Of a stretch of DNA of 64,000 nt, positions 23-52,158 are shown piece by piece. The notes below the pieces were generated by a model that made no database searches, was not told the origin of the DNA, and saw only the letters and a program-made list of their open reading frames with translations. The stretch lies in NCBI GenBank assembly GCA_038133845.1, contig JAYPUA010000003.1:58444-122443 (forward strand), written 5' to 3'. The translations under genes were made by a program, and so were the position numbers. Origin of the DNA: Deltaproteobacteria bacterium (GTDB lineage: Bacteria > SAR324 > NAC60-12). The stretch's first letter is position 1. The number at the start of each line of letters is the position of its first letter.

Positions 23-952
23 ATGCGCAAGGAGTATCAAGAGCTTCAACTCGGAGCCACCAAGGGGCGCCAAGAGGCCTTTGTCGAGAAGTACGCGAGG
101 TTCTCCTGGGCCTCCGAGGAGGTCCGCCAGGTCAAGCAGGCGCTGGCACAGCGCAACGCAAACTCCGGTAGCCAAGGTTCTTCAGAGTTTGACGAAGCGC
201 GCATGATGAGCGAGTACAGCAGGCTGAACTACCAGCCCAATGGACAAAAATACGAGGAGTTCATCAGCCGCTACGAAAAATTTCCGGAAGCCGAAAAGCA
301 AGTGGCCTACGTGCGCGATCGGCTGCAAGCTCTAAAGAAGGCAGAGATTCCGGATGATAAAAAACGTGACTTTGCCCGAAATCGCCGGTTCCGAGCACTG
401 TATGAGGCAGCAATGAAGGAAAGCCGGGAGACCGTCGGTTGCGGACTCTTTGGGTTTGGGTGCCCGGACCCGTTGGTCTTTCCGGAGTACCAGCAAGGCT
501 TTCACTTGAAGGACTACCGCCGGGTCAAGGTCAATGGGAACCGCGCCTCCTGGACCGAGACCGGCGTAAAGCTGGACGTCAACGATGTCGCGGTGGTGAT
601 GGCTTCCGGAGCGGTCAAGATCTGCAGCAGCTGCAGCAAGCGGGGCATGCTTTCTCTGGACGAGAGTTGGCTGCTATCCCTGCGAGTGGGGGAAGCCCAA
701 AAGCCCAAACAGATTTGGTGGGTCAAGCGTAACTCCATCCATACTGTGAGGTTCACCTCCAACGATCTGGGGGAGTTGAAGTTCCTCGTCCCGGAGCGAG
801 AAGTTTCCCACTACAAAGACAACGCCGGAAGCTTCTTGCTGGATGTCTTCGTGTTTGAGGGGCGATATGAGGAGGAGTTCAACACCTTTCGAGAGGCACT
901 CATGAGGGCGAATCCCGAGGACGAGCACATGCAGGCATACCTCGGGCGCTGA
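23..952 (+). CDS. Hypothetical protein with internal repeats of the form x-Y-x-x-F-[SP]-x-[AS]-E-E/K-V (two copies) and a beta-rich C-terminal domain. The frame is open upstream to the window edge, so the 5' end may be truncated by the window.
   Basis: 309-codon ORF with coding-like high GC3 and no recognisable family. There is no in-frame stop between position 2 and the first ATG. Confidence 0.45.
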   Translation: MRKEYQELQLGATKGRQEAFVEKYARFSWASEEVRQVKQALAQRNANSGSQGSSEFDEARMMSEYSRLNYQPNGQKYEEFISRYEKFPEAEKQVAYVRDRLQALKKAEIPDDKKRDFARNRRFRALYEAAMKESRETVGCGLFGFGCPDPLVFPEYQQGFHLKDYRRVKVNGNRASWTETGVKLDVNDVAVVMASGAVKICSSCSKRGMLSLDESWLLSLRVGEAQKPKQIWWVKRNSIHTVRFTSNDLGELKFLVPEREVSHYKDNAGSFLLDVFVFEGRYEEEFNTFREALMRANPEDEHMQAYLGR

Positions 953-955
953 GGG

Positions 956-1405
956 TCAGTTGAGCTTGAAGGCTCGGTTGAAGGCCCGTCGCAGATAGTC
1001 CGGCTCCTGAGGGCCAGTGAGGGTGGCAATGCGCTGGCCTTCCGGGCTGAAGAAGAGCAGAGTGACGTTGCTCACGTCGTGCAGTTGAGCAAAAGCCCGG
1101 CCCTCCGGGGTGTTGAGCCCGGCGATGATGAAGCGGACCTTCCCTTGATATTCTGGTTCGAGCGAGTGGACCACTCGCTTCAGCTCGCGGCAGAGGCTTC
1201 AGCCAGGGTCGTGAATCTGAACCACAATGTTCTGTCCCTGCCCAATCGCCTGCAGGTCCGTGTCTTCCGGAGTGAAGTCGTACCAAAGCCAGGCTCCTGC
1301 CAGGATCAAAAAGGCGCTCGTGGCTAGCGTCAGGAGGCGCACCTGCTGCTGGCGCTGCCGGGATTTAGAAGGTGCTTTGGAAGAGTTTGATGAAGATTTT
1401 GCCAT
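956..1405 (-). CDS. Membrane-anchored thioredoxin-fold protein. Two same-frame ORFs (1199..1405 and 956..1174) are separated only by TGA at 1199..1201, which sits at the active-site position and reads G-[TGA]-S-L-C against canonical W-C-G-P-C. This makes it a putative selenoprotein, or otherwise a pseudogene.
   Basis: The N-terminal piece has a TM helix (LLTLATSAFLILAGAWLW) followed by beta1 (NIVVQIHDPG). The C-terminal piece aligns to thioredoxin: YQGKVRFI, the cis-Pro motif TLLFFSP, and RIATLTG. Both pieces are in frame 1 mod 3, and the downstream piece has no Shine-Dalgarno of its own. Confidence 0.55.
1161..1179 (-). promoter_or_regulatory. Hairpin agcgagu-GGUCC-acucgcu lying +23..+41 downstream of the in-frame UGA; candidate bacterial SECIS-like element.
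   Basis: A 7-bp perfect stem with a 5-nt apical loop containing GGU. Its distance from the UGA is within the range described for bacterial SECIS elements. Confidence 0.3.
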
Positions 1406-1689
1406 ATTTCCAGAGAGTCAAACAGGTGATGCCTTGCCCAAAATCCTAGAAAACGAACCTCCGGAAGACCAGAAGAAAATGCGGAGGTTCCTACTTTTCC
1501 CTGCCTCAAAGGCCTCAGTGCACCGGAAGCTGGAAGCCTTGGGTCCTGGCGTCCGGTACAAATCCTCCACAAAGCAACGCCCCAATTTTCAAAATTTGTC
1601 AGCTACAGGCTTGTGATGACTTAAAAAATCTCATAGGGTAATCACCTCGTGCGGTTTACTCAACATCCTGTCTGTAGAGAACAATCCAG

Positions 1690-1983: not shown

Positions 1984-2997
1984 TCAGTCCCTGTCGGCAC
2001 CATCCAGCACGTCCCGGTAGCGTTCGCGGGGAGCAACGACTTCGCCAATCCGGACTGCCGTTTTCCCGCGCAGTGCGCCCTGAGTTCCTCGAAACTTGAG
2101 GACCCCGTTGACCAGCACAGGGAGCGGAGCATCCACTCCCTGATCCAGACGGAGAACCTCTCCCGGCTTGAGATTGAGAAAGTGTCGCAGGCTGATGCGG
2201 GTCCTGCCCAGTTGAGCACAGACCTCCACGGAGGTGTGCCGCAGGCTCTCGGCCAGCCGCGCCGCACTCATTGGGTTCAGGTCCGAGTCCATGTTCTGAG
2301 AAGCCGCATCAAGCCTGGCCCGGATGGGGTCCAGCATCCCGTAAGGCAGGGCGACACGCATGGTCATCGGGTTGCGGTGCAGCTCCACGTCGAAGGTGGT
2401 CACCACCAGGATGTCCTCCGGCCCCGTCACCGACGCGAGCTTCGGGTTGGACTCGATGCGCTCAAAGGTGGGGCGCAGTTGAACAGCAGGCTTCCAGGCG
2501 GTCCCGAGGTCCTGCAAGGCGGCCTGAGCGATCTTGGCGACCATGCGCATCTCAATGCCGGTAAAGGTCCGCTTGACCGGGCCTCCGGGTTCAAACTGGC
2601 CGGTGCCGCCAAACATCAGGTCGATCAGGGCATGGACCAGCCGTTGTTCAAAGGAGAGGATCGCATGCCCCTGCAACGGAGCGAGCCCAAAGACGGTGAC
2701 TGCCGAGGGGGAGGGGGTGCCGTCCAGCAGATCCTTTTGGCTGATCAACTCGATCGCTCGCCGGTTGACCATGAAGTTCCGCCGTAACTGCTTCCCAAGC
2801 GATTGGGAGAAGGACTTGGCAAAGCGGTCGTGAACGGTCTCCAACCCGGGCATCCGTCCACGGATGATGCGCGTCTGGTGTCCCAGTTCGTAGGGTTTGA
2901 TCTCGTTGGGCTCTTGAGACAGTTGAGCTTCTCGGGCCTTCTGGACCGCATGCTCAAGCAAGGAAGTGACTTCTTGATTGGAAAATTTCGAATTCAC
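1984..2997 (-). CDS. fliM: Flagellar motor switch protein FliM. The ORF is open further, to 3204, but the likely start is the GTG at 2995..2997, just before the CheY-binding-like motif SNQEVTSLL.
   Basis: IKPYEL...HDRFAKSFSQSLGKQLRR and LIDLMFGGTG form the FliM middle domain, and the C-terminus has a SpoA/FliN fold (GEVLRLDQ...PVLVNGVLKFRG). The extended N-terminus would overlap the NUDIX gene start. Confidence 0.8.
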   Translation of the reverse strand: MNSKFSNQEVTSLLEHAVQKAREAQLSQEPNEIKPYELGHQTRIIRGRMPGLETVHDRFAKSFSQSLGKQLRRNFMVNRRAIELISQKDLLDGTPSPSAVTVFGLAPLQGHAILSFEQRLVHALIDLMFGGTGQFEPGGPVKRTFTGIEMRMVAKIAQAALQDLGTAWKPAVQLRPTFERIESNPKLASVTGPEDILVVTTFDVELHRNPMTMRVALPYGMLDPIRARLDAASQNMDSDLNPMSAARLAESLRHTSVEVCAQLGRTRISLRHFLNLKPGEVLRLDQGVDAPLPVLVNGVLKFRGTQGALRGKTAVRIGEVVAPRERYRDVLDGADRD

Positions 2998-3017
2998 AGC
3001 AATCGGATGACAGACAG

Positions 3018-3491
3018 ATGAAGTTGGGCACCCTGGTGTATCTTGAGCACCAGGAGCAGGTGCTGATGATCCGTCGCCAGAAGGCGGATGAGCATCAGGG
3101 CATGTATCTCGCTCCCGGAGGAAAGCTGGAGCCCAACGAGGCCCCACATTCCGGGGCGCTTCGGGAGTTCCATGAAGAAACCGGATTGCAGGTTTTGAAC
3201 CCACGCCTCAGCGCGGTCCTCAGTTTCCCCGATCTCGGTGACTCTCCCTTCGGAGACGAGTGGCAGGTGTTCGTGTTTCATGCTACGCAATTCTCAGGGA
3301 CGCTGACGAAGGAGTGTCCAGAAGGCCAACTGGAGTGGATCTCCCGGGAGGCCTTGAGCGCCTTGCCCATGTGGGAGGGAGACCGCCTGTTCACCCCGAA
3401 AGTCTTTGATCCTGGATGCTTCACCGCATCTTTCCTGTATCGTGGAAGCTACCTGCAGGAGTGGCAGTTCTGGGAACCAGAGAATCCATGA
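3018..3491 (+). CDS. NUDIX hydrolase
   Basis: Nudix box GGKLEPNEAPHSGALREFHEETG (GX5EX7REUXEEXGU). Confidence 0.85.
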   Translation: MKLGTLVYLEHQEQVLMIRRQKADEHQGMYLAPGGKLEPNEAPHSGALREFHEETGLQVLNPRLSAVLSFPDLGDSPFGDEWQVFVFHATQFSGTLTKECPEGQLEWISREALSALPMWEGDRLFTPKVFDPGCFTASFLYRGSYLQEWQFWEPENP

Positions 3492-3866: not shown

Positions 3867-4754
3867 TCAGAGGCTGATCCGGGTGTAGCAGGAGTGAATC
3901 CACTGAGAGAAGAAGGTGTTGCGGTGGGAACGCCAGCGGTTGACCGGGTTGTTGAAGTCAAAGTTGGCCACCGGAGGGACCTCCGGGCTGTTCTGATCTC
4001 GCCGCGCCTCATAGGCCAGGCGCCCGGCGTTGTACTCCGGATGCCCGGTATGCATGAGCACCCGTTGGTCGGTTGTTTCGAAGATGGTGTATCCGGACTC
4101 CGGACCATAGGCCAGCAAGTTGAGCCTCCCTTCGTGCTCCGCCTGACGCATGGCGTCGTCCGGGAGCCCGGCGTTGCGGCTCTGCGGACACCAGAAGACA
4201 TCATCCAGCGCTCCCATCACCGGGTGCCCCTGGGCCTGGTTTTCCAACTCAAAGAGGCCAAACAGCTTCTGCGGAAGCGTGATCTTCTCAACGCCCTCCA
4301 GGTAGGCCAGGGCAAACCCTCCCCAACAGATTCCCAAGGTGCTCGGGCAACTCTCCCGGGAATCCCGGATCACTTCAGAGATCTCATCCCAATACTCGAC
4401 CTTCTCAAACGGAAGATGTTCCACCGGGGCACCCGTGACGATCAGTCCGTCCAGAGGCTGGTTTCGAGTGGCTTCCGAATATGTCATGTACAGGTCGTCC
4501 AGATGTCCTGCAGGCCAGGACTTGTAAACGTGTGACTCCAACCGAATCCAGATCGGCTCAATCTGCAGCACGGAGAGTCCCAGGGGATGAAGCAGGTTGA
4601 ACTCGTACTGCTCTCCCAACGGCATGATGTTGAGCAGCCCGATGCGCAGTGGACGAATGTCTTGGCGCTCCGCCTGTTCCGGAGGAATCCAGCGGATGCG
4701 GTTTTGCTCAATGGCCTGGAGCGCGTGATAGTTGGAGCGGATGATCAAGGTCAT
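3867..4754 (-). CDS. metA: Homoserine O-acyltransferase, MetA family. The ORF extends to 4826, but the start MTLIIRSNY at 4752..4754 matches MetA length.
   Basis: IRPLRIGLLNIMP, LIVTGAP, CWGGFALAYL and HTGHPEY; collinear with E. coli MetA. Confidence 0.85.
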   Translation of the reverse strand: MTLIIRSNYHALQAIEQNRIRWIPPEQAERQDIRPLRIGLLNIMPLGEQYEFNLLHPLGLSVLQIEPIWIRLESHVYKSWPAGHLDDLYMTYSEATRNQPLDGLIVTGAPVEHLPFEKVEYWDEISEVIRDSRESCPSTLGICWGGFALAYLEGVEKITLPQKLFGLFELENQAQGHPVMGALDDVFWCPQSRNAGLPDDAMRQAEHEGRLNLLAYGPESGYTIFETTDQRVLMHTGHPEYNAGRLAYEARRDQNSPEVPPVANFDFNNPVNRWRSHRNTFFSQWIHSCYTRISL

Positions 4755-4835
4755 GGTTGCGGTACTGCGTTCAAATTCTTTCTCCAAAAGTGGACGATCC
4801 CGGAGCTTGCGCAACCCCGGGACCATCCGAGAAGA

Positions 4836-6408
<1,573 letters not shown>

Positions 6409-21676: not shown

Positions 21677-22273
21677 TCAGGCCAAGCGCTGTGGGTTCGA
21701 AGAAGTGAGGGTGCGGAGGACCTCCGGGAGCAGCCGATGCTCCACCGAGTGGATCCGCTCCGCGAGCGTGGACTCCGTATCGTCGGCAAGGATCGGCACA
21801 CGCTCCTGAGCAATCACGGAGCCGGTGTCCATTCCGGAGTCCACAAAATGCACCGTCACTCCGGTTTCAGACACCTTGGCGCGCCAGGCCTGGCCAATCG
21901 CATCCTTCCCGGGAAAGGCCGGCAGCAGCGACGGATGCAAGTTGATCATCCGGCCCTCCCAGACCTCCAGAAGCGTTGGCCCAACCAGCCTCATGTAACC
22001 GGCCAGCACGACCCATTCCGCCTGGACCTGCTCGAGCTGCTGCAGGAGTTCATGCTCAAATTCGGCCTTGTCCCGAAAGTCCTTGGGTCGAAAGGCAAAC
22101 ACGGGGACTCCGGCATTTTCTGCGTGCTGCACCACCAGGGCTTCGGGGCGGTCACAAACCAACAGGACGACCTGATGCCCTGCCAAAGCTCCAGAGTCGA
22201 CGGCCTGTTGCAGAGCGAGGAAGTTGCTCCCCCGGCCAGAGGCAAACACCGCCACCCGGTGCATTACCTCCAC
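21677..22273 (-). CDS. purN: Phosphoribosylglycinamide formyltransferase
   Basis: VFASGRGSNF...MINLHPSLLPAFPG. Confidence 0.9.
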   Translation of the reverse strand: MEVMHRVAVFASGRGSNFLALQQAVDSGALAGHQVVLLVCDRPEALVVQHAENAGVPVFAFRPKDFRDKAEFEHELLQQLEQVQAEWVVLAGYMRLVGPTLLEVWEGRMINLHPSLLPAFPGKDAIGQAWRAKVSETGVTVHFVDSGMDTGSVIAQERVPILADDTESTLAERIHSVEHRLLPEVLRTLTSSNPQRLA

Positions 22274-23289
22274 ACCACGACTCCATTGCCGGAAACGACC
22301 CGCCCGATCCGGTAGGGCGTTTGCCCCAAGTCGGCCAGCTGCCGCATCGCTGAGTCCGCCTGTGCTTGAGGGACACAGAGGACAAACCCGATCCCGAGAT
22401 TGAAGACCGGCTCCAAATCTTCGAAGGACAGCTCTCCCTGGTCCTGAAGGAACTGGAAAATTGCCGGAACCGGCCAGCAGCCGTGTTCCAACTCAACGGA
22501 CACTCCGGGAGGCAGCATTCGGGGAATGTTCCCAGAAAGCCCCCCGCCGGTGATGTGCGCCATCCCCCGAATCTCGCAGGTTTTCATGACCGCCAGAATC
22601 GGTTTGACGTAAAGCCGGGTGGGCTCCAGCAAGACTTCTCCGAGGGAGAGGGAACTCCCCGGAAGTCTGATGTTCAAAGAAAGTTGCCGGTCCGCCAAAA
22701 TCTTGCGAACCAGGGAGAATCCGTTGCTGTGTACGCCGCTCGATGTCAGGCCAATCACAACGTCTCCGGGGGCAATTCGGGAGCCGTCGATCAGGTTCTC
22801 CCGACTGACCGCCCCGACAGCAAACCCTGCAAGGTCGTATTCTCCGGAGGCATACATCCCGGGCATCTCTGCGGTCTCGCCGCCAAGCAGAGCGCACCCG
22901 GACTCTTCGCAGCCCCGGCTGACCCCGCCCACAATCGCCTCCGCCTGATCCGGACGAAGCTCTCCACAGGCCAGATAGTCGAGGAAAAAAAGGGGCTCTG
23001 CCCCCTGAACCAGGATGTCATTGACGCACATGGCGACGAGGTCCAGGCCAATGGTGTCGTGCCGGTTCAGTTCAAAGGCAAGCTTGAGCTTGGTCCCCAC
23101 GCCATCGGTCCCGGAAACCAGCACCGGGTTCGGGAAGCGAGAGAGATCGAGTTGAAACAGGCCGCCAAAACCGCCCAGCCCAGCGAGCACTTCCGGACGC
23201 AGAGTCTTCTGGGCAAGCGGCTTGAAGCGCTCAACCACTTCATCTGCGGCTTGCAGGCTCACTCCTGCAGCACGGTACGCTTCGCTCAT
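22264..23289 (-). CDS. purM: Phosphoribosylformylglycinamidine cyclo-ligase (AIR synthetase)
   Basis: SGTDGVGTKL and the PurM N- and C-terminal domains. Confidence 0.9.
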   Translation of the reverse strand: MSEAYRAAGVSLQAADEVVERFKPLAQKTLRPEVLAGLGGFGGLFQLDLSRFPNPVLVSGTDGVGTKLKLAFELNRHDTIGLDLVAMCVNDILVQGAEPLFFLDYLACGELRPDQAEAIVGGVSRGCEESGCALLGGETAEMPGMYASGEYDLAGFAVGAVSRENLIDGSRIAPGDVVIGLTSSGVHSNGFSLVRKILADRQLSLNIRLPGSSLSLGEVLLEPTRLYVKPILAVMKTCEIRGMAHITGGGLSGNIPRMLPPGVSVELEHGCWPVPAIFQFLQDQGELSFEDLEPVFNLGIGFVLCVPQAQADSAMRQLADLGQTPYRIGRVVSGNGVVVWR

Positions 23290-46086: not shown

Positions 46087-47694
46087 ATGGCTGACCAGGC
46101 CAACATCCTCCAAGACGTCAGGCTGCAGTTTCAGGACTTTTTCGGGTCCCTCAGTCTGGGCAAGCGCATCACCATCCTTGGAGCGTTGGGCATCATCCTG
46201 ATCGGCATGGTCGGTCTGATCATTGTCGCCAATCGCCCCACTTGGGCTCCGCTGTATTCCGAACTGGATCCAGCCGATGCCGCCAAGATCGTCAACAAAC
46301 TTCAGGAAAACCAGATCCCCTACCTCTTGGCTCCCGGGGGGGGGACGGTCATGGTCGACCCGCAGATGGTTGATCAGGCTCGACTGACGCTTGCTCGAGA
46401 AAAAGTTGTCCCAGGCAGTGGCGTGGGCTTCATGGATCTGTTTGCGACTCCCAGCTTGGGAGAGACGGAATTTCAGCAACAGGTGAAATTCCGTGTCGCT
46501 CAGGAAGGAGAGCTGGCCCGGTTGATTGGGCAGTTGGACGCCGTCCGGAACGCCAAGGTCTCCTTGGCCATCCCTCAGAAAAGCCTCTTCTCCGAAGCTC
46601 AAGAAAAGCCGACCGCTGCGGTTGCCTTGAGCATCAACAACAACATCACCCGCGAACAGGTAGAGACCATTGTGCATTTGGTCGCCGGTGCGGTAGAAGG
46701 CATGAGCATCACCGATGTCCGGGTCTCGGATCAGAGCGGGAAACTGCTCAGCCGTGGCGTCTCCAACGACAGCATGGGGGGGAACATTGGGGACAACTAC
46801 ATCTACCAGCGCCGCTACGAGCAGGAAGTGGAGAGCAAGATCCGCAACCAGCTGGAGGAGATCGTCGGAGATGGTCGGGTCAAGGTGATCGTCTCAGCAA
46901 CCATGCGTTTTGACCGAGAAACCATCAAAGAGCAACTGATCGACCCGGATCAGACCAGTGTGGTCAGCGAACAACTGGTCGATGAGGCCTCCACAGGATC
47001 CCGCTCGATCCCCGTCGGTCCCTCCGGTGTGACGACCAACCTTCCGGAAGCCACTGGGCGTGAAGCCGCAACCGTCTCCGAATTCACCAAGAAGAACTCC
47101 ACACGAAATTTTGAGACCAGCCGCCGGGAAGTCCTCAAGGAGGCGGCGATTGGCGAAGTGTTGCGTCTGAGCGTTTCCGTCCTGCTGGACAACAAGCGTC
47201 CGCAGATTCTTGACGATAGCGGGAACTTCATCGGTCGAGACAACATCCGTTGGACCGAAGCCGAGAAGGAAGTCATCGTCGGGCTGGTCAAGGCCGCCAT
47301 CGGCTACAATGAAGGTCGGGGCGACGAGGTCTTCGTGGGCAACATGCCCTTCGGAAAAGCGGTTGAGGAAGACAAGGCTGCAGAGATCGAACGGACTCGG
47401 GTTCGCAACCAGTTCATCCTCGATATCGTCCGCTACGTGGCTCTCGGCATCGCCGTGGTGGCCCTCATCACCCTGGTCATTCGCCCGATGGTTCAACGCC
47501 TCAGCGCCAAGCCTGCCGACCTGGACATGCTCATGGGCCTGCCTGCGACCATTGGCGAACTCGAGGGCGAGGAACTCGAGATCCCGACCGAGCGCGAATC
47601 CGGAATTCCTCCACGCGACAAGATCATCGAGATCGCCAAGCAAGACGCACTCAAGACCGCATCCCTGGTGCGCTCTTGGCTGCGTGAGAAGTAA
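46087..47694 (+). CDS. fliF: Flagellar M-ring protein FliF
   Basis: 535 aa with N- and C-terminal TM helices and a large periplasmic RBM region. The C-terminal cytoplasmic tail is present. Confidence 0.9.
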   Translation: MADQANILQDVRLQFQDFFGSLSLGKRITILGALGIILIGMVGLIIVANRPTWAPLYSELDPADAAKIVNKLQENQIPYLLAPGGGTVMVDPQMVDQARLTLAREKVVPGSGVGFMDLFATPSLGETEFQQQVKFRVAQEGELARLIGQLDAVRNAKVSLAIPQKSLFSEAQEKPTAAVALSINNNITREQVETIVHLVAGAVEGMSITDVRVSDQSGKLLSRGVSNDSMGGNIGDNYIYQRRYEQEVESKIRNQLEEIVGDGRVKVIVSATMRFDRETIKEQLIDPDQTSVVSEQLVDEASTGSRSIPVGPSGVTTNLPEATGREAATVSEFTKKNSTRNFETSRREVLKEAAIGEVLRLSVSVLLDNKRPQILDDSGNFIGRDNIRWTEAEKEVIVGLVKAAIGYNEGRGDEVFVGNMPFGKAVEEDKAAEIERTRVRNQFILDIVRYVALGIAVVALITLVIRPMVQRLSAKPADLDMLMGLPATIGELEGEELEIPTERESGIPPRDKIIEIAKQDALKTASLVRSWLREK

Positions 47695-47741
47695 CCAGGT
47701 CGACACCGTCGGCCAAGGCCTGTTCCTCGTGACCCCAGCCT

Positions 47742-48767
47742 TTGCGCCTTCCCATGCCTGAAGATTCTGAGTTTCAATCCTTTGACCTGAAAGACTTCAG
47801 CCACCTCAGCGAACAGCCCGAGGAGGAACGTCCGGAGGTGACCCCAGGAGTGGATGCCGAGGGATTCAGCCCGATTGACCTCTCCGGACGACGCCTGACA
47901 GAAGCCGAACTGGAACCTCAGGAGGACTCCCTCTCCGAGGAGGAGAAGGTTGCCTTTGCCCAGAATTTTCACAACGACAGCTTCATCCGGGAAGACAGCC
48001 TCCTCACCAGCGCGGAAGCCTATGCCTCGACGGTGCGGGAGGGGGCCGACCTGTATCGTCAGCAACTGCTGTCCGGTGCAGAGACGGAGCGCAATGAAGC
48101 CCGACGTCTGAGGCAAGAGGCAGACCAGATCCGGATTCAAGCGGAGGAGCAGCGGGCCCGGATGATTGAAGAGGCCGAGCAATCAGTCAACAGCATCCGG
48201 GAGAGTGCACGACAACAGGGCTACGAGGAAGGCTACGCAAGCGGATTGCAGCAACGCTACGAAGAGGCTGCACCCGTGGCACAGAGAGCGGAGGAGGTCC
48301 TGCAGCAGCTCATGGGGTTGCGCCAACTGGTTCGCTTTCAATCGGAGCAGGAGTTGGTTCAGCTTGCAGTGGTGATCGCCCGGAAGTTGGTCATCGAAGA
48401 GCTAAGCGTCAACTCTCAGGTCATTCAAAATATTGTCCAGGCTGGGCTGAAGGAGATCGAGGGGAAAGGCAAGATCACCGCGATCCTCCACCCCGAAGAT
48501 TACGATTTTTTAGCGAACAGTGGAGTCAATTTTGATCCTTACCTCGGCGAGGAGCAGTCGCTGTCCGTTCGCTCTTCCATGGATGTAGAACCCGGCTCCA
48601 TATCCATCGAGTCGGATGAAGAGGCTGTCAACTTCTCGTTCCAGCAAAAGTTTGAGGAGTTGGAGGAGTTGCTCAGCCAAAAGCTGGTGGAGCGCTACGC
48701 CCGGATGAATGAGATCGACATGGATTCCGAAGAGTTTCAGACTCCTGCAAAAGAAGAGATGTCATGA
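47742..48767 (+). CDS. fliH: Flagellar assembly protein FliH (regulator of the FliI ATPase)
   Basis: Charged coiled-coil middle region, and C-terminal ELVQLAVVIARKLV...ILHPEDY typical of FliH/SctL. Confidence 0.7.
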   Translation: MRLPMPEDSEFQSFDLKDFSHLSEQPEEERPEVTPGVDAEGFSPIDLSGRRLTEAELEPQEDSLSEEEKVAFAQNFHNDSFIREDSLLTSAEAYASTVREGADLYRQQLLSGAETERNEARRLRQEADQIRIQAEEQRARMIEEAEQSVNSIRESARQQGYEEGYASGLQQRYEEAAPVAQRAEEVLQQLMGLRQLVRFQSEQELVQLAVVIARKLVIEELSVNSQVIQNIVQAGLKEIEGKGKITAILHPEDYDFLANSGVNFDPYLGEEQSLSVRSSMDVEPGSISIESDEEAVNFSFQQKFEELEELLSQKLVERYARMNEIDMDSEEFQTPAKEEMS

Positions 48768-50113
48768 GCCTGCCACATCCAGAGGCTCACTCGAACTCCG
48801 CGCTCCAGCCTTACCTCCAGACCATTCTCCACCAGCCCAGCATCCGCAGGGAGGGCCGCGTCACGCAGGTGATCGGTCACATGATTGAGGCCACCAATCC
48901 CGGATGTTCAATCGGTTCGCTCTGCCGGATTCTGAATCCACGAGATCACTCTCATGTGCCTGCAGAGGTGGTCGGCTTGCGGAACGAGAAGATCCTCGTG
49001 ATGCCCTTGAGCCATGCCTACGGGATCGGGCCACACTGCCGGATTATTGCAGAGGATCGTCCCGCAATGGTTCCCGTGGGCGACAGCCTGCTGGGGCGAG
49101 TCTTCGACCCCTTGATGCGCCCCATCGACGACCTGGGGGATTTGGCGACCAACCAGGAGATTCCGCTCCATCCGGAAGTGATCAATCCGTTGAAGCGCGA
49201 GCGCATCAAGGAGCCTCTGGATGTCGGAGTTCGCTCCATCAACGGCACCCTGACCTGTGGACGGGGACAGCGTGTGGGGATCATGGCGGGCTCGGGAGTG
49301 GGGAAATCGGTGCTCCTGGGCATGATGGCCCGCTACACGGATGCCGACGTGAACGTGATCTCGCTGATTGGCGAGCGGGGAAAGGAGGTCCGAGAGTTTA
49401 TTGAGGACAACCTGGGAGAAGAGGGGCTGCGACGCTCAGTAGTGGTGGTCGCGACCTCGGATCAGCCTCCACTGCTCCGGATGCGAGGTGCCTACGTCGC
49501 GACGGCCATCGCGGAGTACTTCCGAAATCAAGGCCTGGATGTGCTGCTCTCCATGGACTCGCTGACTCGATTTGCCATGGCCCAACGAGAGATCGGCCTT
49601 GCTGCCGGGGAACCTCCCACGACCAAAGGCTATCCGCCATCGGTGTTTGCCATGCTTCCCCTGCTCTTGGAGCGGGCTGGAACCCATCAGGGTGAAGGCT
49701 CCATCACCGGGTTCTACACCGTGCTGGTCGAAGGGGACGACACCAACGACCCGATCGGGGATGCCGTGCGCTCGATTGTTGATGGACACATCGTCCTCAG
49801 TCGAGACCTCGCCTCCAAAGGCGTCTACCCGGCTATTGACGTCCTGCTCTCCTCCAGCCGGGTGATGGTGGACGTCGTGCCCAAGCACTTCCGCCAACTC
49901 TCACAGATCTTCCGCAGAACTTTGGCCACCTACAGCGAAGCTGAAGACCTGATCAACATTGGCGCCTACGTTCAGGGGAGCAACCCAGAGATCGATTACT
50001 CCCTCTCCAAACACTCCGCGATCATGGAGTTCCTCACTCAGGACATGGAAGACCACACCTCCCTGACCGAGTGCGAAGCTCGCATGCAGCACATGTTCGG
50101 CGACCGGATGTGA
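48764..50113 (+). CDS. fliI: Flagellum-specific ATP synthase FliI
   Basis: Walker A GSGVGKSVLLGMM and an F1/T3SS ATPase fold. Start overlaps the fliH stop. Confidence 0.9.
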   Translation: MSLPHPEAHSNSALQPYLQTILHQPSIRREGRVTQVIGHMIEATNPGCSIGSLCRILNPRDHSHVPAEVVGLRNEKILVMPLSHAYGIGPHCRIIAEDRPAMVPVGDSLLGRVFDPLMRPIDDLGDLATNQEIPLHPEVINPLKRERIKEPLDVGVRSINGTLTCGRGQRVGIMAGSGVGKSVLLGMMARYTDADVNVISLIGERGKEVREFIEDNLGEEGLRRSVVVVATSDQPPLLRMRGAYVATAIAEYFRNQGLDVLLSMDSLTRFAMAQREIGLAAGEPPTTKGYPPSVFAMLPLLLERAGTHQGEGSITGFYTVLVEGDDTNDPIGDAVRSIVDGHIVLSRDLASKGVYPAIDVLLSSSRVMVDVVPKHFRQLSQIFRRTLATYSEAEDLINIGAYVQGSNPEIDYSLSKHSAIMEFLTQDMEDHTSLTECEARMQHMFGDRM

Positions 50114-50969: not shown

Positions 50970-51989
50970 TTACTCGCCGCGTTCGGCACGTATGCGGGCA
51001 GAGCGCTCGTCGATGTAGCGCTGAAACTCGGGCTGCTGCTCATAGTCCCTCTGGAGGACGTACTCCAGCGCTGCCTGGACGTGAAAGCCGCGCAGGTAGC
51101 TGTCCATCCGGAAGGTCTCTGTGCGCTCTCCGGCAGCATAGAGGAGGATGGTCGGAAAGTAGTTGAGTTTCAGCCCAGACACCCAGTCTCGAACAGACGT
51201 CCTCGTTCCATCCGGAAGGGTGAGCGCTTCCGAGGACAGCGCGTCGTAGCGAGTCACACGGTACTTTTTCAGCAGCTCATAGCTCCCCTTCTGGCTGAAA
51301 GCTCCTTGCTGCATGCGCAGGCAGTCGTCGCAGCTTCGGGTCTCGAGAAAGACCGCGAGCGGCTGCTCTCCGACCCACTGATCCAGCCGGGTGGTCTGTT
51401 CAAAGAAGGGCTGGGGGTAAAGCTCCCCCTGGGGCAGGCGGTAGGCCTGTAGTGCGTCCTCTTCCACTCCGGCCACCTGTCCCAGTAGCCGCAGAAACGG
51501 CTTCGGAGGGCGGTAGCCGTTGAGTCGGGCCTTCGGATTCTCCAGATCTGGCGAGTCCAGCACAATCAGGGTCGGGGTGTACTGGACCTTCAGATGGATG
51601 GCAAACTCCTTCTCGCTCATCGTGCTCCCGTCTGGAAGCGTCACTTCACGGTCTCCACGGAGGTTGAAGGAGACCACATCAAAATGTTCCTGTACAAACC
51701 CTCGGATGTCCGGAGCCGAGAGGTTCTTCTGAGCCATCGCCATGCAGTACGGACACCCCTCTTGCCAAAAGTAGAGGATGAGTTGCTTGCCGGCCTCCTG
51801 AGCCTCCACGACGTCTTCATCGACAATCAGGAAGCTGTCCTTGAACCAGTACGGGTTCTCAAAGGCCGAACCGACCTGCCCCTGGATGAACTCATCCGAT
51901 CCGGAAGAGCCCTGGGCAAAGACGTGCGAGACCGGACCGAAGATCCACAGGCAAAGGAAACCGGCCATCCACCAATTTTTGAAATTCAT
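50970..51989 (-). CDS. Periplasmic protein with two thioredoxin-like domains and two CXXC motifs (GCPYC and SCDDC)
   Basis: Signal peptide MNFKNWWMAGFLCLWIFGPVSHVFA-Q and the Trx-fold consensus around each CXXC. The ORF is open to 52007. Confidence 0.6.
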   Translation of the reverse strand: MNFKNWWMAGFLCLWIFGPVSHVFAQGSSGSDEFIQGQVGSAFENPYWFKDSFLIVDEDVVEAQEAGKQLILYFWQEGCPYCMAMAQKNLSAPDIRGFVQEHFDVVSFNLRGDREVTLPDGSTMSEKEFAIHLKVQYTPTLIVLDSPDLENPKARLNGYRPPKPFLRLLGQVAGVEEDALQAYRLPQGELYPQPFFEQTTRLDQWVGEQPLAVFLETRSCDDCLRMQQGAFSQKGSYELLKKYRVTRYDALSSEALTLPDGTRTSVRDWVSGLKLNYFPTILLYAAGERTETFRMDSYLRGFHVQAALEYVLQRDYEQQPEFQRYIDERSARIRAERGE

Positions 51990-52158
51990 ACCATTGCACC
52001 AGATCAAGACGTTTTACAAGCCACCTGCGAGACGCAGGGTGCTTCAAATTGGTCTGTTTTGCCCGGAGGGGCAATGCAAAAATGAGGAGAGTTCCGGGGA
52101 GAGTGGAAGCCCGGAGGAAGAAGGCTGAATCGGCTCCTCCGGGGAGACGAGATCACCC

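What the first reader, a model, noticed from the sequence alone, without database searches (positions are those of the whole stretch)
956..1405. In-frame TGA at the catalytic-Cys position of a membrane-anchored thioredoxin: candidate selenocysteine (U-S-L-C) with a SECIS-like hairpin
Minus-strand ORFs 1199..1405 and 956..1174 are in the same frame (both 1 mod 3). They are separated only by TGA at 1199..1201. The joined product is a complete, collinear thioredoxin. It has an N-terminal TM anchor, beta1 NIVVQIHDPG, then G-[TGA]-SLC-RELKR where thioredoxin has W-C-G-P-C-K. After that come YQGKVRFI, the cis-Pro motif TLLFFSP, RIATLTG and a C-terminal helix. The stop codon falls exactly on the nucleophilic cysteine, and the resolving Cys three residues later is retained. 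That is the classic Sec/Cys pattern (UxxC) rather than a random nonsense mutation. The downstream piece starts at a GTG with no Shine-Dalgarno of its own, so it is unlikely to be a separate gene. At +23..+41 from the UGA the mRNA can form agcgagu-GGUCC-acucgcu (fwd 1161..1179), a 7-bp stem with a G/U-containing apical loop. That distance is within the window described for bacterial SECIS elements. The selenoprotein interpretation depends on what the rest of the genome encodes.
Basis: partly seen in the sequence, partly recalled or inferred. Interest (0 to 1): 0.8.

Follow-up and report, generated by a model that had tools for sequence, protein, structure and literature searches.

The report
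Membrane-anchored thioredoxin-like selenoprotein gene
Two small "hypothetical" ORFs are really one gene for a membrane-tethered thioredoxin-like protein whose catalytic cysteine is replaced by selenocysteine, encoded by a UGA that a conserved downstream RNA hairpin marks for recoding; this is a genuine but fairly ordinary kind of bacterial selenoprotein that public annotation has missed.

Summary
On the minus strand, 1405..956 is a single 149-codon frame interrupted only by TGA at 1201..1199.

- **Not an error or pseudogene.** The TGA is present in at least 10 independent assemblies of the same species. It is at the same codon in 10 further lineages (about 45-75% amino-acid identity, genomic GC 40-62%).
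- **Selection.** Both halves are under purifying selection.
- **Sec/Cys pairing.** Family members without TGA carry TGT or TGC (Cys) at that codon.
- **SECIS.** A hairpin at 1179..1161 sits at a fixed distance in all 11 TGA forms. It has an invariant G-U in its loop and compensatory base changes. It meets all four published bacterial SECIS criteria and is absent from the two same-family Cys forms I could examine.
- **TGA is still a stop.** It ends 32 of 44 Pfam-supported ORFs in the window, including this gene.
- **Protein.** An N-terminal membrane anchor is followed by a classical thioredoxin fold with a U-x-x-C centre, probably facing the periplasm.
- **Not tested.** The Sec machinery (selA/B/C/D) is not in the window and could not be checked in the rest of the genome.

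Verdict: a real selenoprotein gene, a new member of a well-known kind (UxxC Trx-like selenoproteins), and currently annotated only as a truncated hypothetical protein.

The parts
956..1405 (-). Complete selenoprotein coding sequence: 149 codons, ATG at 1405..1403, Sec-UGA as codon 69, true stop TGA at 958..956.
   Evidence: Searches show a single frame. Orthologues are collinear over the whole length with the same internal TGA. Synonymous changes outnumber replacements in both halves.
1199..1201 (-). In-frame TGA, read as selenocysteine (U69), at the position of the nucleophilic Cys of the thioredoxin CxxC motif.
   Evidence: TGA is at this codon in all 11 lineages examined. Cys forms of the family have TGT or TGC here. 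hhalign places it on Cys32 of E. coli TrxA.
1190..1192 (-). TGC codon for Cys72, the resolving cysteine of the U-S-L-C motif.
   Evidence: This codon is invariant in all 11 Sec forms and in the Cys forms. It aligns with Cys35 of E. coli TrxA.
1161..1179 (-). Bacterial SECIS hairpin, nt +23..+41 counted from the U of UGA. The arms are AGCGAGUG (1179..1172) and CACUCGCU (1168..1161). The loop is GUC (1171..1169), with G31 and U32 invariant across the family.
   Evidence: 92% of cells are paired across 11 sequences, against 24-46% when the 3' partner is slid. Compensatory changes occur at pairs 24-40, 27-37 and 30-34. No shuffle out of 500 reaches the observed covariation score. RNAalifold finds the same helix. 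The hairpin alone folds at -11.6 kcal/mol. None of its 7 codons varies at synonymous sites, against 50 of 80 elsewhere (Fisher p = 0.0018). It is absent in the Cys forms L030 and L032.
1280..1336 (-). Membrane anchor or signal-anchor (L24-Y42, LLTLATSAFLILAGAWLWY). It follows a basic N-terminus (K3, K10, K14, R16, R18, R23) and precedes an acidic stretch (DFTPEDTD).
   Evidence: Read directly from the sequence. The equivalent segment of homologue P0004 is modelled as one long helix, residues 13-35. One family member carries a lipoprotein-type signal instead. The N-in/C-out topology is inferred from the positive-inside rule.
959..1237 (-). Thioredoxin-fold domain (residues 57-149): beta1 NIVVQIH, U-S-L-C at the start of alpha1, beta2 VRFIIAG, alpha2, beta3 TLLFF, beta4 RIATLTG, C-terminal helix.
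   Evidence: Pfam PF00085 matches residues 57-140. The AlphaFold2 model of the Cys homologue P0004 has pLDDT 92.6 and the order beta-alpha-beta-alpha-beta-beta-alpha. The best Foldseek PDB matches are classical thioredoxins, with target-normalised TM about 0.75-0.8.

Best explanation
This is one gene for a small (149 aa) membrane-tethered thioredoxin-fold selenoprotein.

**Decoding.** During translation, the UGA at codon 69 is recoded as selenocysteine. The coding-region hairpin that starts 19 nt after the UGA (its apical loop 27 nt after it), with a G-GUC-C apical loop, acts as a bacterial SECIS. It is bound by SelB-GTP-Sec-tRNA(Sec) and delivers Sec to the A site. The ribosome then melts the hairpin and reads on to the real stop at 958..956, which has no such hairpin after it.

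**Protein.** The product is inserted with its basic N-terminus in the cytoplasm and its thioredoxin domain outside, in the periplasm. There a U-S-L-C centre carries out thiol/selenol-disulfide exchange. The selenolate of U69 attacks the substrate, and Cys72 resolves the mixed selenenylsulfide.

**Status of each step.** Shown by comparative sequence analysis: the single frame, conservation of the TGA, the Sec/Cys pairing, selection on both halves, the covarying hairpin and the thioredoxin fold. Inferred: SelB dependence, topology, direction of electron flow and the physiological substrate.
For: - **Reproducibility.** TGA is read identically in at least 10 independent assemblies from NCBI, Logan, ENA and JGI samples. 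The few population SNPs are mostly synonymous and none touches the TGA or the hairpin.
- **Conservation.** Two orthologues at 73-74% identity (L013, L014) and eight more distant members (L022-L029) all have TGA at the same codon. The motifs are U-SL/SA/GF/GS/GD/AV/TH/PP/PK-C.
- **Sec/Cys pairing.** Family members with Cys at that position include CPHC, CRIC, CSLC, CPSC, CSAC and CQLC, encoded by TGT or TGC. More distant CcdA-linked homologues have CQYC or CPPC.
- **Selection.** Both halves show many synonymous and few replacement changes. Synonymous variation is suppressed in codons +1..+13: 2 of 13 vary, against 50 of 80 elsewhere (p = 0.002).
- **Hairpin.** It keeps the same register in all 11 Sec forms, has an invariant loop GU, and shows compensatory changes that include a replacement (Ser to Ala or Thr) matched by a synonymous Arg-codon change.
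- **bSECIS criteria (PMC13188914, Fig. 2 legend), all met.** Loop 3-9 nt, stem 4-16 bp, G in the first two loop positions, 16-37 nt spacing (27 nt here), and MFE at or below -7.5 (-11.6 here).
- **Control.** The same-family Cys forms lack the hairpin (2-3 of 8 pairs).
- **TGA is otherwise a stop.** It terminates 32 of 44 Pfam-supported ORFs in the window.
- **Fold.** Thioredoxin fold by Pfam, AlphaFold2 and Foldseek.
Against: - No selA, selB, selD or tRNA-Sec lies in the 64-kb window or in any fetched locus. The rest of the genome could not be searched.
- No other selenoprotein candidate is visible in the window.
- The hairpin is short, and its MFE in an 81-nt context is not better than shuffles (z = +0.6). 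Only the isolated hairpin is significant.
- Covariation rests on 11 sequences.
- The family lacks the thioredoxin cis-Pro, and a whole clade of the family has no redox residues at all. The family's core function may therefore not be classical disulfide exchange.
- There are no conserved gene neighbours to indicate a partner or a substrate.
Confidence: 0.87

Rival explanations
1. A thioredoxin-like gene recently inactivated by a nonsense mutation (pseudogene), or a sequencing or assembly error.
For: Gene callers split it into two hypothetical ORFs, and only the 72-aa piece is deposited. No Sec machinery is seen in the window.
Against: The same TGA appears in at least 10 independent assemblies. 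It is at the same codon in 10 other lineages down to about 45% identity. Purifying selection acts on both sides of the stop and there are no other lesions. A conserved, covarying hairpin sits at a fixed distance downstream.
Confidence: 0.01
2. Genome-wide reassignment of TGA (for example to Trp or Gly), so the residue is an ordinary amino acid. Some pipelines translated it this way (W in P0001 and P0165).
For: Two database entries show Trp at the position.
Against: Those entries translate a TGA under genetic code 4. In this window TGA ends 32 of 44 Pfam-supported ORFs, including this gene itself. Genomic GC is 60%, unlike known TGA-recoding lineages (my own knowledge). Homologues have Cys, not Trp or Gly, at this site.
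Confidence: 0.01
3. The UGA is a genuine regulated stop. The gene yields a 68-aa membrane peptide, with low-level SECIS-independent read-through (near-cognate Trp or Cys) or reinitiation at the GTG. The hairpin would act as a pause or read-through stimulator rather than a SelB site.
For: SelB and tRNA-Sec were not found in the sequence available. Downstream hairpins can stimulate read-through in other systems (my own knowledge).
Against: The stop falls exactly on the catalytic Cys, with the resolving Cys retained, in every lineage. The loop carries the invariant G-U and the spacing typical of SelB-type SECIS elements (PMC13188914). No Shine-Dalgarno precedes the GTG, and that codon is simply a conserved Val (R-V-V) in family members. 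Splitting the protein there would separate beta1 from the rest of the fold.
Confidence: 0.06
4. It is a selenoprotein, but not a disulfide oxidoreductase in the classical sense. The missing cis-Pro and the redox-less sister clade suggest a binding or assembly role in the envelope (for example handling a metal, metalloid or selenium species), with Sec/Cys as a ligand.
For: The family lacks cis-Pro76. Thirteen cluster representatives have neither Sec nor Cys yet keep the other conserved motifs. The x-x dipeptide is highly variable. No CcdA/DsbD partner is adjacent in any Sec-form locus.
Against: The U/C-x-x-C spacing and its position at the start of helix alpha1 are exactly those of redox-active thioredoxins. 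More distant Cys homologues sit next to a CcdA/DsbD-like gene. Use of Sec is typical of catalytic redox sites (PMC9312934, PMC2398784).
Confidence: 0.2

Closest known systems
Sec-containing thioredoxin and 'Trx-like' UxxC selenoproteins of bacteria. These are catalogued from genomes and metagenomes (PMC1088965, PMC2398784, PMC9312934). The Treponema denticola Trx is the experimentally studied case (cited as ref. 59 in PMC9312934).
   Same: Thioredoxin fold. U-x-x-C with Sec at the nucleophilic position. Cys-containing homologues. An in-frame UGA followed by a coding-region SECIS hairpin. A weak but above-threshold PF00085 match.
   Different: It has an N-terminal membrane anchor and is probably extracytoplasmic. 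The motif is G-U-S-L-C rather than W-C/U-G-P-C. It has no cis-Pro. No dedicated Pfam or NCBIfam model scores above threshold. I could not determine whether it falls in one of the published 'Trx-like 1/2/3' bins, because no matching sequences are in the held supplements.
E. coli fdhF-type bacterial SECIS and the consensus bSECIS model (PMC13188914, section 5).
   Same: A stem-loop in the coding region just 3' of the UGA. A small apical loop with G then U: G-GUC-C here, against the GGUC loop of fdhF (the latter from my own knowledge). Spacing lies within the 16-37 nt window.
   Different: By my own recollection of the fdhF numbering, the loop G-U is about 9 nt further from the UGA than in fdhF. 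No bulged U is evident. The helix is only 7-8 bp. No Rfam family matches it.
Membrane-anchored periplasmic thioredoxin-like reductases fed by CcdA/DsbD (ResA, TlpA, CcmG/DsbE).
   Same: An N-terminal anchor followed by an extracytoplasmic thioredoxin domain with a C-x-x-C-type centre. The more distant Cys homologues (L015, L017-L021) are followed by a CcdA/DsbD-like gene.
   Different: No ccdA/dsbD or cytochrome-maturation gene is adjacent in the window or in any Sec-form locus. The best structural matches are classical thioredoxins, not TlpA/ResA/CcmG. There is no cis-Pro.
'UGSC-containing protein' selenoprotein family (PMC2398784).
   Same: A small protein with a UxxC motif and no recognisable domain, said to have a likely Trx-like fold. 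Sec forms are at least as common as Cys forms.
   Different: Only one of the 11 members here has U-G-S-C (L024). The window has U-S-L-C and the dipeptide is variable. No reference sequence was available for a direct comparison.

Membership tests
Bacterial selenoprotein gene (Sec-UGA plus bSECIS) | In-frame UGA that aligns with Cys in homologues (Sec/Cys pair) | tested here: met
   The TGA aligns with the first Cys of CxxC in P0002, P0004, P0044, P0045, P0062 and P0073, and in L015 and L017-L021. The Cys codons are TGT or TGC.
Bacterial selenoprotein gene (Sec-UGA plus bSECIS) | UGA conserved in orthologues, with coding conservation on both sides | tested here: met
   Eleven lineages carry TGA at the same codon. 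Synonymous changes outnumber replacements both upstream and downstream of it.
Bacterial selenoprotein gene (Sec-UGA plus bSECIS) | bSECIS: 3-9 nt loop, 4-16 bp stem, G in the first two loop positions, 16-37 nt from the UGA, MFE at or below -7.5 kcal/mol (PMC13188914) | tested here: met
   Loop GUC or GGUCC, 7-8 bp stem, loop begins 27 nt after the UGA, MFE -11.6 kcal/mol. Covariation supports the helix.
Bacterial selenoprotein gene (Sec-UGA plus bSECIS) | Genome encodes selA, selB, selC (tRNA-Sec) and selD | not testable with these tools
   None is in the window or the fetched loci. The AIRS-domain ORF at 22264-23289 sits between purN-like and purF-like genes and is PurM-like, not SelD.
Bacterial selenoprotein gene (Sec-UGA plus bSECIS) | Selenium physically incorporated at the UGA position | not testable with these tools
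   This needs 75Se labelling or mass spectrometry.
Thioredoxin family (Pfam PF00085 / thioredoxin fold) | Profile match above the curated threshold | tested here: met
   26.1 bits against a cut-off of 23.5, with U replaced by C. All NCBIfam thioredoxin equivalogs score far below their cut-offs.
Thioredoxin family (Pfam PF00085 / thioredoxin fold) | beta-alpha-beta-alpha-beta-beta-alpha fold with the redox motif at the N-terminus of helix alpha1 | tested here: met
   Tested on the AlphaFold2 model of the 55%-identical Cys homologue P0004, pLDDT 92.6. Foldseek PDB top hits are thioredoxins, rmsd 1.6-2 A. hhalign aligns U/C-x-x-C with Cys32/Cys35. The window protein itself could not be submitted for modelling.
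Thioredoxin family (Pfam PF00085 / thioredoxin fold) | Conserved cis-proline loop (Pro76 of E. coli TrxA) facing the active site | tested here: not met
   The family has V/T/A-T-L-L-F-F with no Pro. hhalign places a gap at Pro76.
CcdA/DsbD-dependent periplasmic thioredoxin-like reductases (ResA/TlpA/CcmG) | Membrane anchor or signal with an extracytoplasmic thioredoxin domain | tested here: inconclusive
   The basic N-terminus, hydrophobic helix and acidic flank fit N-in/C-out. One member has a lipoprotein-type signal. No topology predictor or experiment was available.
CcdA/DsbD-dependent periplasmic thioredoxin-like reductases (ResA/TlpA/CcmG) | Genetic linkage to ccdA/dsbD or cytochrome c maturation genes | tested here: not met
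   Neighbours differ in every Sec-form locus and none is CcdA/DsbD. Only the roughly 30%-identical Cys homologues are followed by a CcdA-like ORF.
UGSC-containing selenoprotein family | Conserved U-G-S-C motif | tested here: not met
   The window has U-S-L-C. Only L024 of the 11 members has U-G-S-C.

The most novel reading that the evidence does not exclude
This may be a selenoprotein family that is not yet catalogued. Its members would be small, envelope-tethered thioredoxin-fold proteins without the cis-Pro loop. In this reading Sec, with one and the same SECIS hairpin, is ancestral: it occurs in two separated branches of a rough NJ tree. It would then have been replaced by Cys, or lost together with Cys, in sister clades. 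That would point to an extracytoplasmic selenium-dependent function that differs from classical disulfide reduction.
Probability: 0.3. Interest if true: 0.5.

Novelty: new member of a known kind. Interest (0 to 1): 0.4.

Why it matters
- **Annotation.** Public records hold only the 3' fragment, as "hypothetical protein", or translate the UGA as Trp. Recognising the gene corrects these entries.
- **Organism.** It flags this organism and its relatives as selenocysteine users. That is a concrete prediction: selA, selB, selC and selD should be found in the full genome.
- **Family.** It defines a coherent family with Sec, Cys and redox-less forms. Such a family could serve for studying Sec/Cys exchange, and for asking what an exported thioredoxin fold does without its cis-proline.
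- **Scope.** It does not change what is known about selenocysteine decoding. UxxC thioredoxin-like proteins are the commonest class of predicted bacterial selenoproteins (PMC9312934, PMC2398784).

Tried and rejected
- **Word-indexed protein search** with the joined protein found nothing.
- **Spurious phmmer hits.** Most high-scoring phmmer hits were long multi-stretch proteins. They are WD40-repeat proteins matching SNVTLLFFSPEGQRIATLT by chance and were discarded.
- **Rfam** has no family matching the hairpin, at gathering or at permissive thresholds.
- **Searches for other selenoprotein genes.** A generic scan for other TGA-split ORFs in the window was too noisy. A stricter scan using codon-position GC left only this gene as a candidate. 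The same idea applied to related loci found nothing convincing.
- **Sec machinery.** Motif scans for SelA, SelB and SelD, and ARAGORN for tRNA-Sec, were negative in the window and all loci. This says nothing about the rest of the genome.
- **Folding context.** Folding an 81-nt context gave no better energy than shuffles. Only the isolated hairpin and the comparative analysis are informative.
- **Synteny** between the window and the 74%-identical orthologue loci is absent, so gene neighbourhood gave no functional clue.
- **AFDB Foldseek** was unavailable.
- **Supplements of the GOS selenoproteome paper** contain no sequence strings from this family, so membership in its 'Trx-like 1-3' bins could not be decided.
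- **An imperfect control.** The distant CcdA-linked Cys homologues show 6-7 of 8 weak A-U/G-U pairs in the SECIS register. They have no loop GU and the pairing is not in their MFE fold. I treat this as coincidence.
Full report
**1. Checking the observation**

The minus strand from 1405 to 956 translates as MAKSSSNSSKAPSKSRQRQQQVRLLTLATSAFLILAGAWLWYDFTPEDTDLQAIGQGQNIVVQIHDPG*SLCRELKRVVHSLEPEYQGKVRFIIAGLNTPEGRAFAQLHDVSNVTLLFFSPEGQRIATLTGPQEPDYLRRAFNRAFKLN*. There is a single internal stop, TGA at 1201..1199, and the terminal stop is also TGA.

The GTG at 1174 is preceded by gagctgaagcga, which has no Shine-Dalgarno-like sequence. The inverted repeat at 1161-1179 is real, perfect and unique in the window. 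With U replaced by C, the joined protein passes the Pfam Thioredoxin threshold at 26.1 bits against a cut-off of 23.5.

**2. Not an error and not a pseudogene**

The 72-aa piece is on record on more than 20 contigs. The gene region I could retrieve from nine of them is 99.6-100% identical to the window and has the TGA. These came from an NCBI MAG (GCA_049459615.1), several Logan runs and a JGI sample. A tenth metagenome contig, L016, shows the same. The few SNPs are mostly synonymous and none touches the TGA or the hairpin.

A scan of species-representative genomes found two orthologues at 73-74% amino-acid identity: L013, and L014, which is titled 'Deltaproteobacteria bacterium' MAG. Both read HDPG-TGA-SLCRELKRVVHSL.

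An exhaustive phmmer search with the C-terminal 80 residues recovered a family of small proteins of about 140-150 aa. Eight of its cluster representatives were either C-terminal fragments that begin just after the motif, or carried 'W' at the position. I retrieved the DNA for all eight. Every one has an in-frame TGA at exactly the same codon, followed three codons later by Cys. The motifs are U-SA-C, U-GF-C, U-GS-C, U-GD-C, U-AV-C, U-TH-C, U-PP-C and U-PK-C. The 'W' entries are TGA translated under genetic code 4.

Across the window, L013 and L014, synonymous differences are frequent and replacements few on both sides of the TGA. The downstream half is therefore translated.

**3. The Sec/Cys pair**

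Six other cluster representatives of the same family have Cys in place of the TGA: CPHC, CRIC, CSLC, CPSC, CSAC and CQLC. In the two whose DNA I retrieved, the codon is TGT or TGC.

More distant homologues (about 30% identity) come from Syntrophomonas and fermentation metagenomes. They have CQYC, CPPC or CLPC and are followed by a CcdA/DsbD-like ORF. A profile alignment to E. coli TrxA puts the U/C on Cys32 and the second Cys on Cys35.

**4. The RNA element**

In all 11 TGA-containing sequences, a hairpin occupies nt +23 to +41 counted from the U of UGA, with no indels. That corresponds to window 1179..1161.

- **Loop.** G31 and U32 are invariant.
- **Pairing.** 92% of cells form standard pairs. 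When the 3' partner is slid by 1-3 columns, only 24-46% do.
- **Covariation.** Three pairs show double changes: 24-40 GC to AU; 27-37 AU to CG, UA or GU; 30-34 GC to CG. No shuffle out of 500 reaches the observed covariation score. RNAalifold independently predicts the same 7-bp helix.
- **Mixed compensation.** Some compensations couple a replacement (Ser to Ala or Thr at codon +12) with a synonymous change in the Arg codon opposite it. A purely protein-level constraint would not produce this pattern.
- **Synonymous suppression.** Among the three closest species, only 2 of 13 amino-acid-conserved codons vary in +1..+13, and 0 of 7 in the hairpin. Elsewhere 50 of 80 vary (Fisher p = 0.002 and 0.0018).
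- **Stability.** The isolated hairpin folds at -11.6 kcal/mol (z = -3.1).

Measured against the consensus bSECIS model quoted in PMC13188914 (Fig. 2 legend), all four constraints are met:

| Constraint | Required | Observed |
|---|---|---|
| Apical loop | 3-9 nt | GUC (3 nt), or GGUCC (5 nt) where pair 30-34 does not form |
| Upper stem | 4-16 bp | 7-8 bp |
| G in the first two loop positions | yes | yes |
| Spacing from UGA to loop | 16-37 nt | 27 nt |
| MFE | at or below -7.5 kcal/mol | -11.6 kcal/mol |

The two same-family Cys forms lack the hairpin, with only 3 of 8 and 2 of 8 pairs in register.

From my own knowledge, the G-GUC-C loop resembles the GGUC loop of the E. coli fdhF SECIS that SelB contacts. 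The G-U here lies about 9 nt further from the UGA.

**5. TGA is otherwise a stop**

Of 44 ORFs in the window with Pfam support, 32 end in TGA, 9 in TAA and 3 in TAG. This gene's own terminator is TGA. Global reassignment of TGA is therefore excluded.

**6. The protein**

An AlphaFold2 model of the Cys homologue P0004 was built with the family alignment. P0004 is 54% identical to the window's C-terminal 80 residues. The model has mean pLDDT 92.6. It shows one long N-terminal helix followed by beta-alpha-beta-alpha-beta-beta-alpha. The best PDB matches are classical thioredoxins, with rmsd 1.6-2 A and target-normalised TM about 0.75-0.8.

The window protein has a basic N-terminus, a 19-residue hydrophobic segment (L24-Y42) and then an acidic stretch. 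By the positive-inside rule this places the thioredoxin domain outside the cytoplasm. One family member has a lipoprotein-type signal (LVFFASAC) instead of the anchor, which fits that reading. Topology remains an inference.

The family has no proline at the thioredoxin cis-Pro position.

A sister clade of 13 cluster representatives has neither Sec nor Cys, yet keeps the other conserved motifs. In a rough NJ tree, Sec forms occupy a main clade next to the Cys forms, plus a separate basal pair (L027, L028) that carries the same hairpin. This hints that Sec may be ancestral in the family, but the tree is crude.

**7. Context**

The gene stands alone between a divergently transcribed HU-like gene (1690-1980, +) and a convergent caspase-like peptidase gene (23-952, +). 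That peptidase gene is full length in L001. Neighbours differ in every family locus, and there is no synteny even with the 74%-identical orthologues.

Pfam annotation of about 50 ORFs found no selA, selB, selD or ccdA/dsbD. The AIRS-domain ORF at 22264-23289 lies between purN-like and purF-like genes and is PurM-like. ARAGORN found no tRNA in the window. The remainder of the genome could not be examined, so the Sec machinery remains the one untested prediction.

**8. Comparison with what is known**

More than 80 prokaryotic selenoprotein families are catalogued, most with a Trx-like fold and a UxxC or CxxU motif. They include thioredoxin itself (pfam00085, UxxC, experimentally studied) and several 'Trx-like', DsbA-like and thiol:disulfide-interchange families. 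Deltaproteobacteria are among the richest users (PMC9312934, PMC2398784, PMC1088965). The present gene fits this class in every tested respect.

It has no dedicated Pfam or NCBIfam model. In GenBank it is annotated only as a truncated 'hypothetical protein'. I could not establish whether it corresponds to one of the published Trx-like bins. It is not the 'UGSC-containing' family by motif.

**9. Verdict**

This is a genuine selenocysteine-encoding gene with a bona fide bacterial SECIS.

- **Confidence.** About 0.87 that Sec is inserted at codon 69. Lower, about 0.6, for the specific role as a periplasmic selenol-disulfide oxidoreductase.
- **Novelty.** A new member, and perhaps a new subfamily, of a well-known kind.
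- **Interest.** Moderate (0.4). It is valuable for annotation and as a Sec/Cys/none family lacking the cis-Pro loop, but it would not surprise a selenoprotein specialist.

Noticed in passing
window 6296-6406 (-): A SAM (S-box) riboswitch, Rfam RF00162 at 53.4 bits. It lies directly upstream of the minus-strand methionine genes 4836-6161 (Cys_Met_Meta_PP) and 3867-4826 (homoserine O-acyltransferase, HTS).
   Followed up: partly
window 1455-1463 / 1482-1490: A perfect 9-bp inverted repeat (GAACCTCCG...CGGAGGTTC) followed on the minus strand by a T-run. It sits about 50 nt upstream of the selenoprotein ATG, in the divergent intergenic region. It looks like a terminator or a leader hairpin.
   Followed up: no
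window 50970-52007 (-): A second, larger exported thioredoxin-like protein (Pfam Thioredoxin_2 and Thioredoxin_7). It has an ordinary C-P-Y-C motif and a normal cis-Pro (Y-T-P-T-L-I-V), so this genome also has conventional Cys-based envelope thioredoxins.
   Followed up: partly
window 1013-1072 (-), residues 112-131 of the protein: The segment SNVTLLFFSPEGQRIATLT mimics the WD40 repeat consensus (SSVTGVAFSPDGQTIAS). It draws hundreds of spurious multi-stretch hits to long repeat proteins in phmmer searches.
   Followed up: yes
family members P0029, P0053, P0074, P0075, P0091, P0092, P0115, P0119, P0122, P0125, P0135, P0138, P0142: A clade of the same membrane-anchored family has neither Sec nor Cys at the active site (for example HDHNLVGSIDLME). 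It keeps the other conserved motifs (DLSxIGxG, FxVADLxTxEGxAFA, TLxFF).
   Followed up: partly
L022 77-517; P0001, P0165: Some public pipelines translated the Sec-TGA as Trp (genetic code 4). This gives full-length but wrong protein entries. Others deposit only the 3' fragment as 'hypothetical protein' (MGA1598235.1, MDH5560200.1).
   Followed up: yes
L029 about 2830-3318 (GCA_029881655.1, JAOUME010000034.1): This Sec-form family member has a lipoprotein-type signal (MIKYRIIASLLFLLVFFASAC) instead of the transmembrane anchor, plus a long low-complexity C-terminal tail.
   Followed up: no
L018-L021 (CcdA-linked Cys homologues): In the register of the SECIS hairpin, these Cys-encoding genes can form 6-7 of 8 weak A-U/G-U pairs. 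They have no G-U in the loop, and the pairing is not part of their MFE fold. This is probably coincidence but was not resolved.
   Followed up: partly
window 46087-50113 (+) and 1984-3204 (-): fliF, a fliH-like ORF and fliI are adjacent, with no fliG Pfam hit between fliF and fliH. fliM sits alone 43 kb away, next to the HU-like gene.
   Followed up: no
window 23-952 (+); L001 7446-9479: The ORF convergent with the selenoprotein gene is the 3' part of a 677-aa caspase-like Peptidase_C14 protein. The window's start cuts it, and the part inside the window has no Pfam hit.
   Followed up: no
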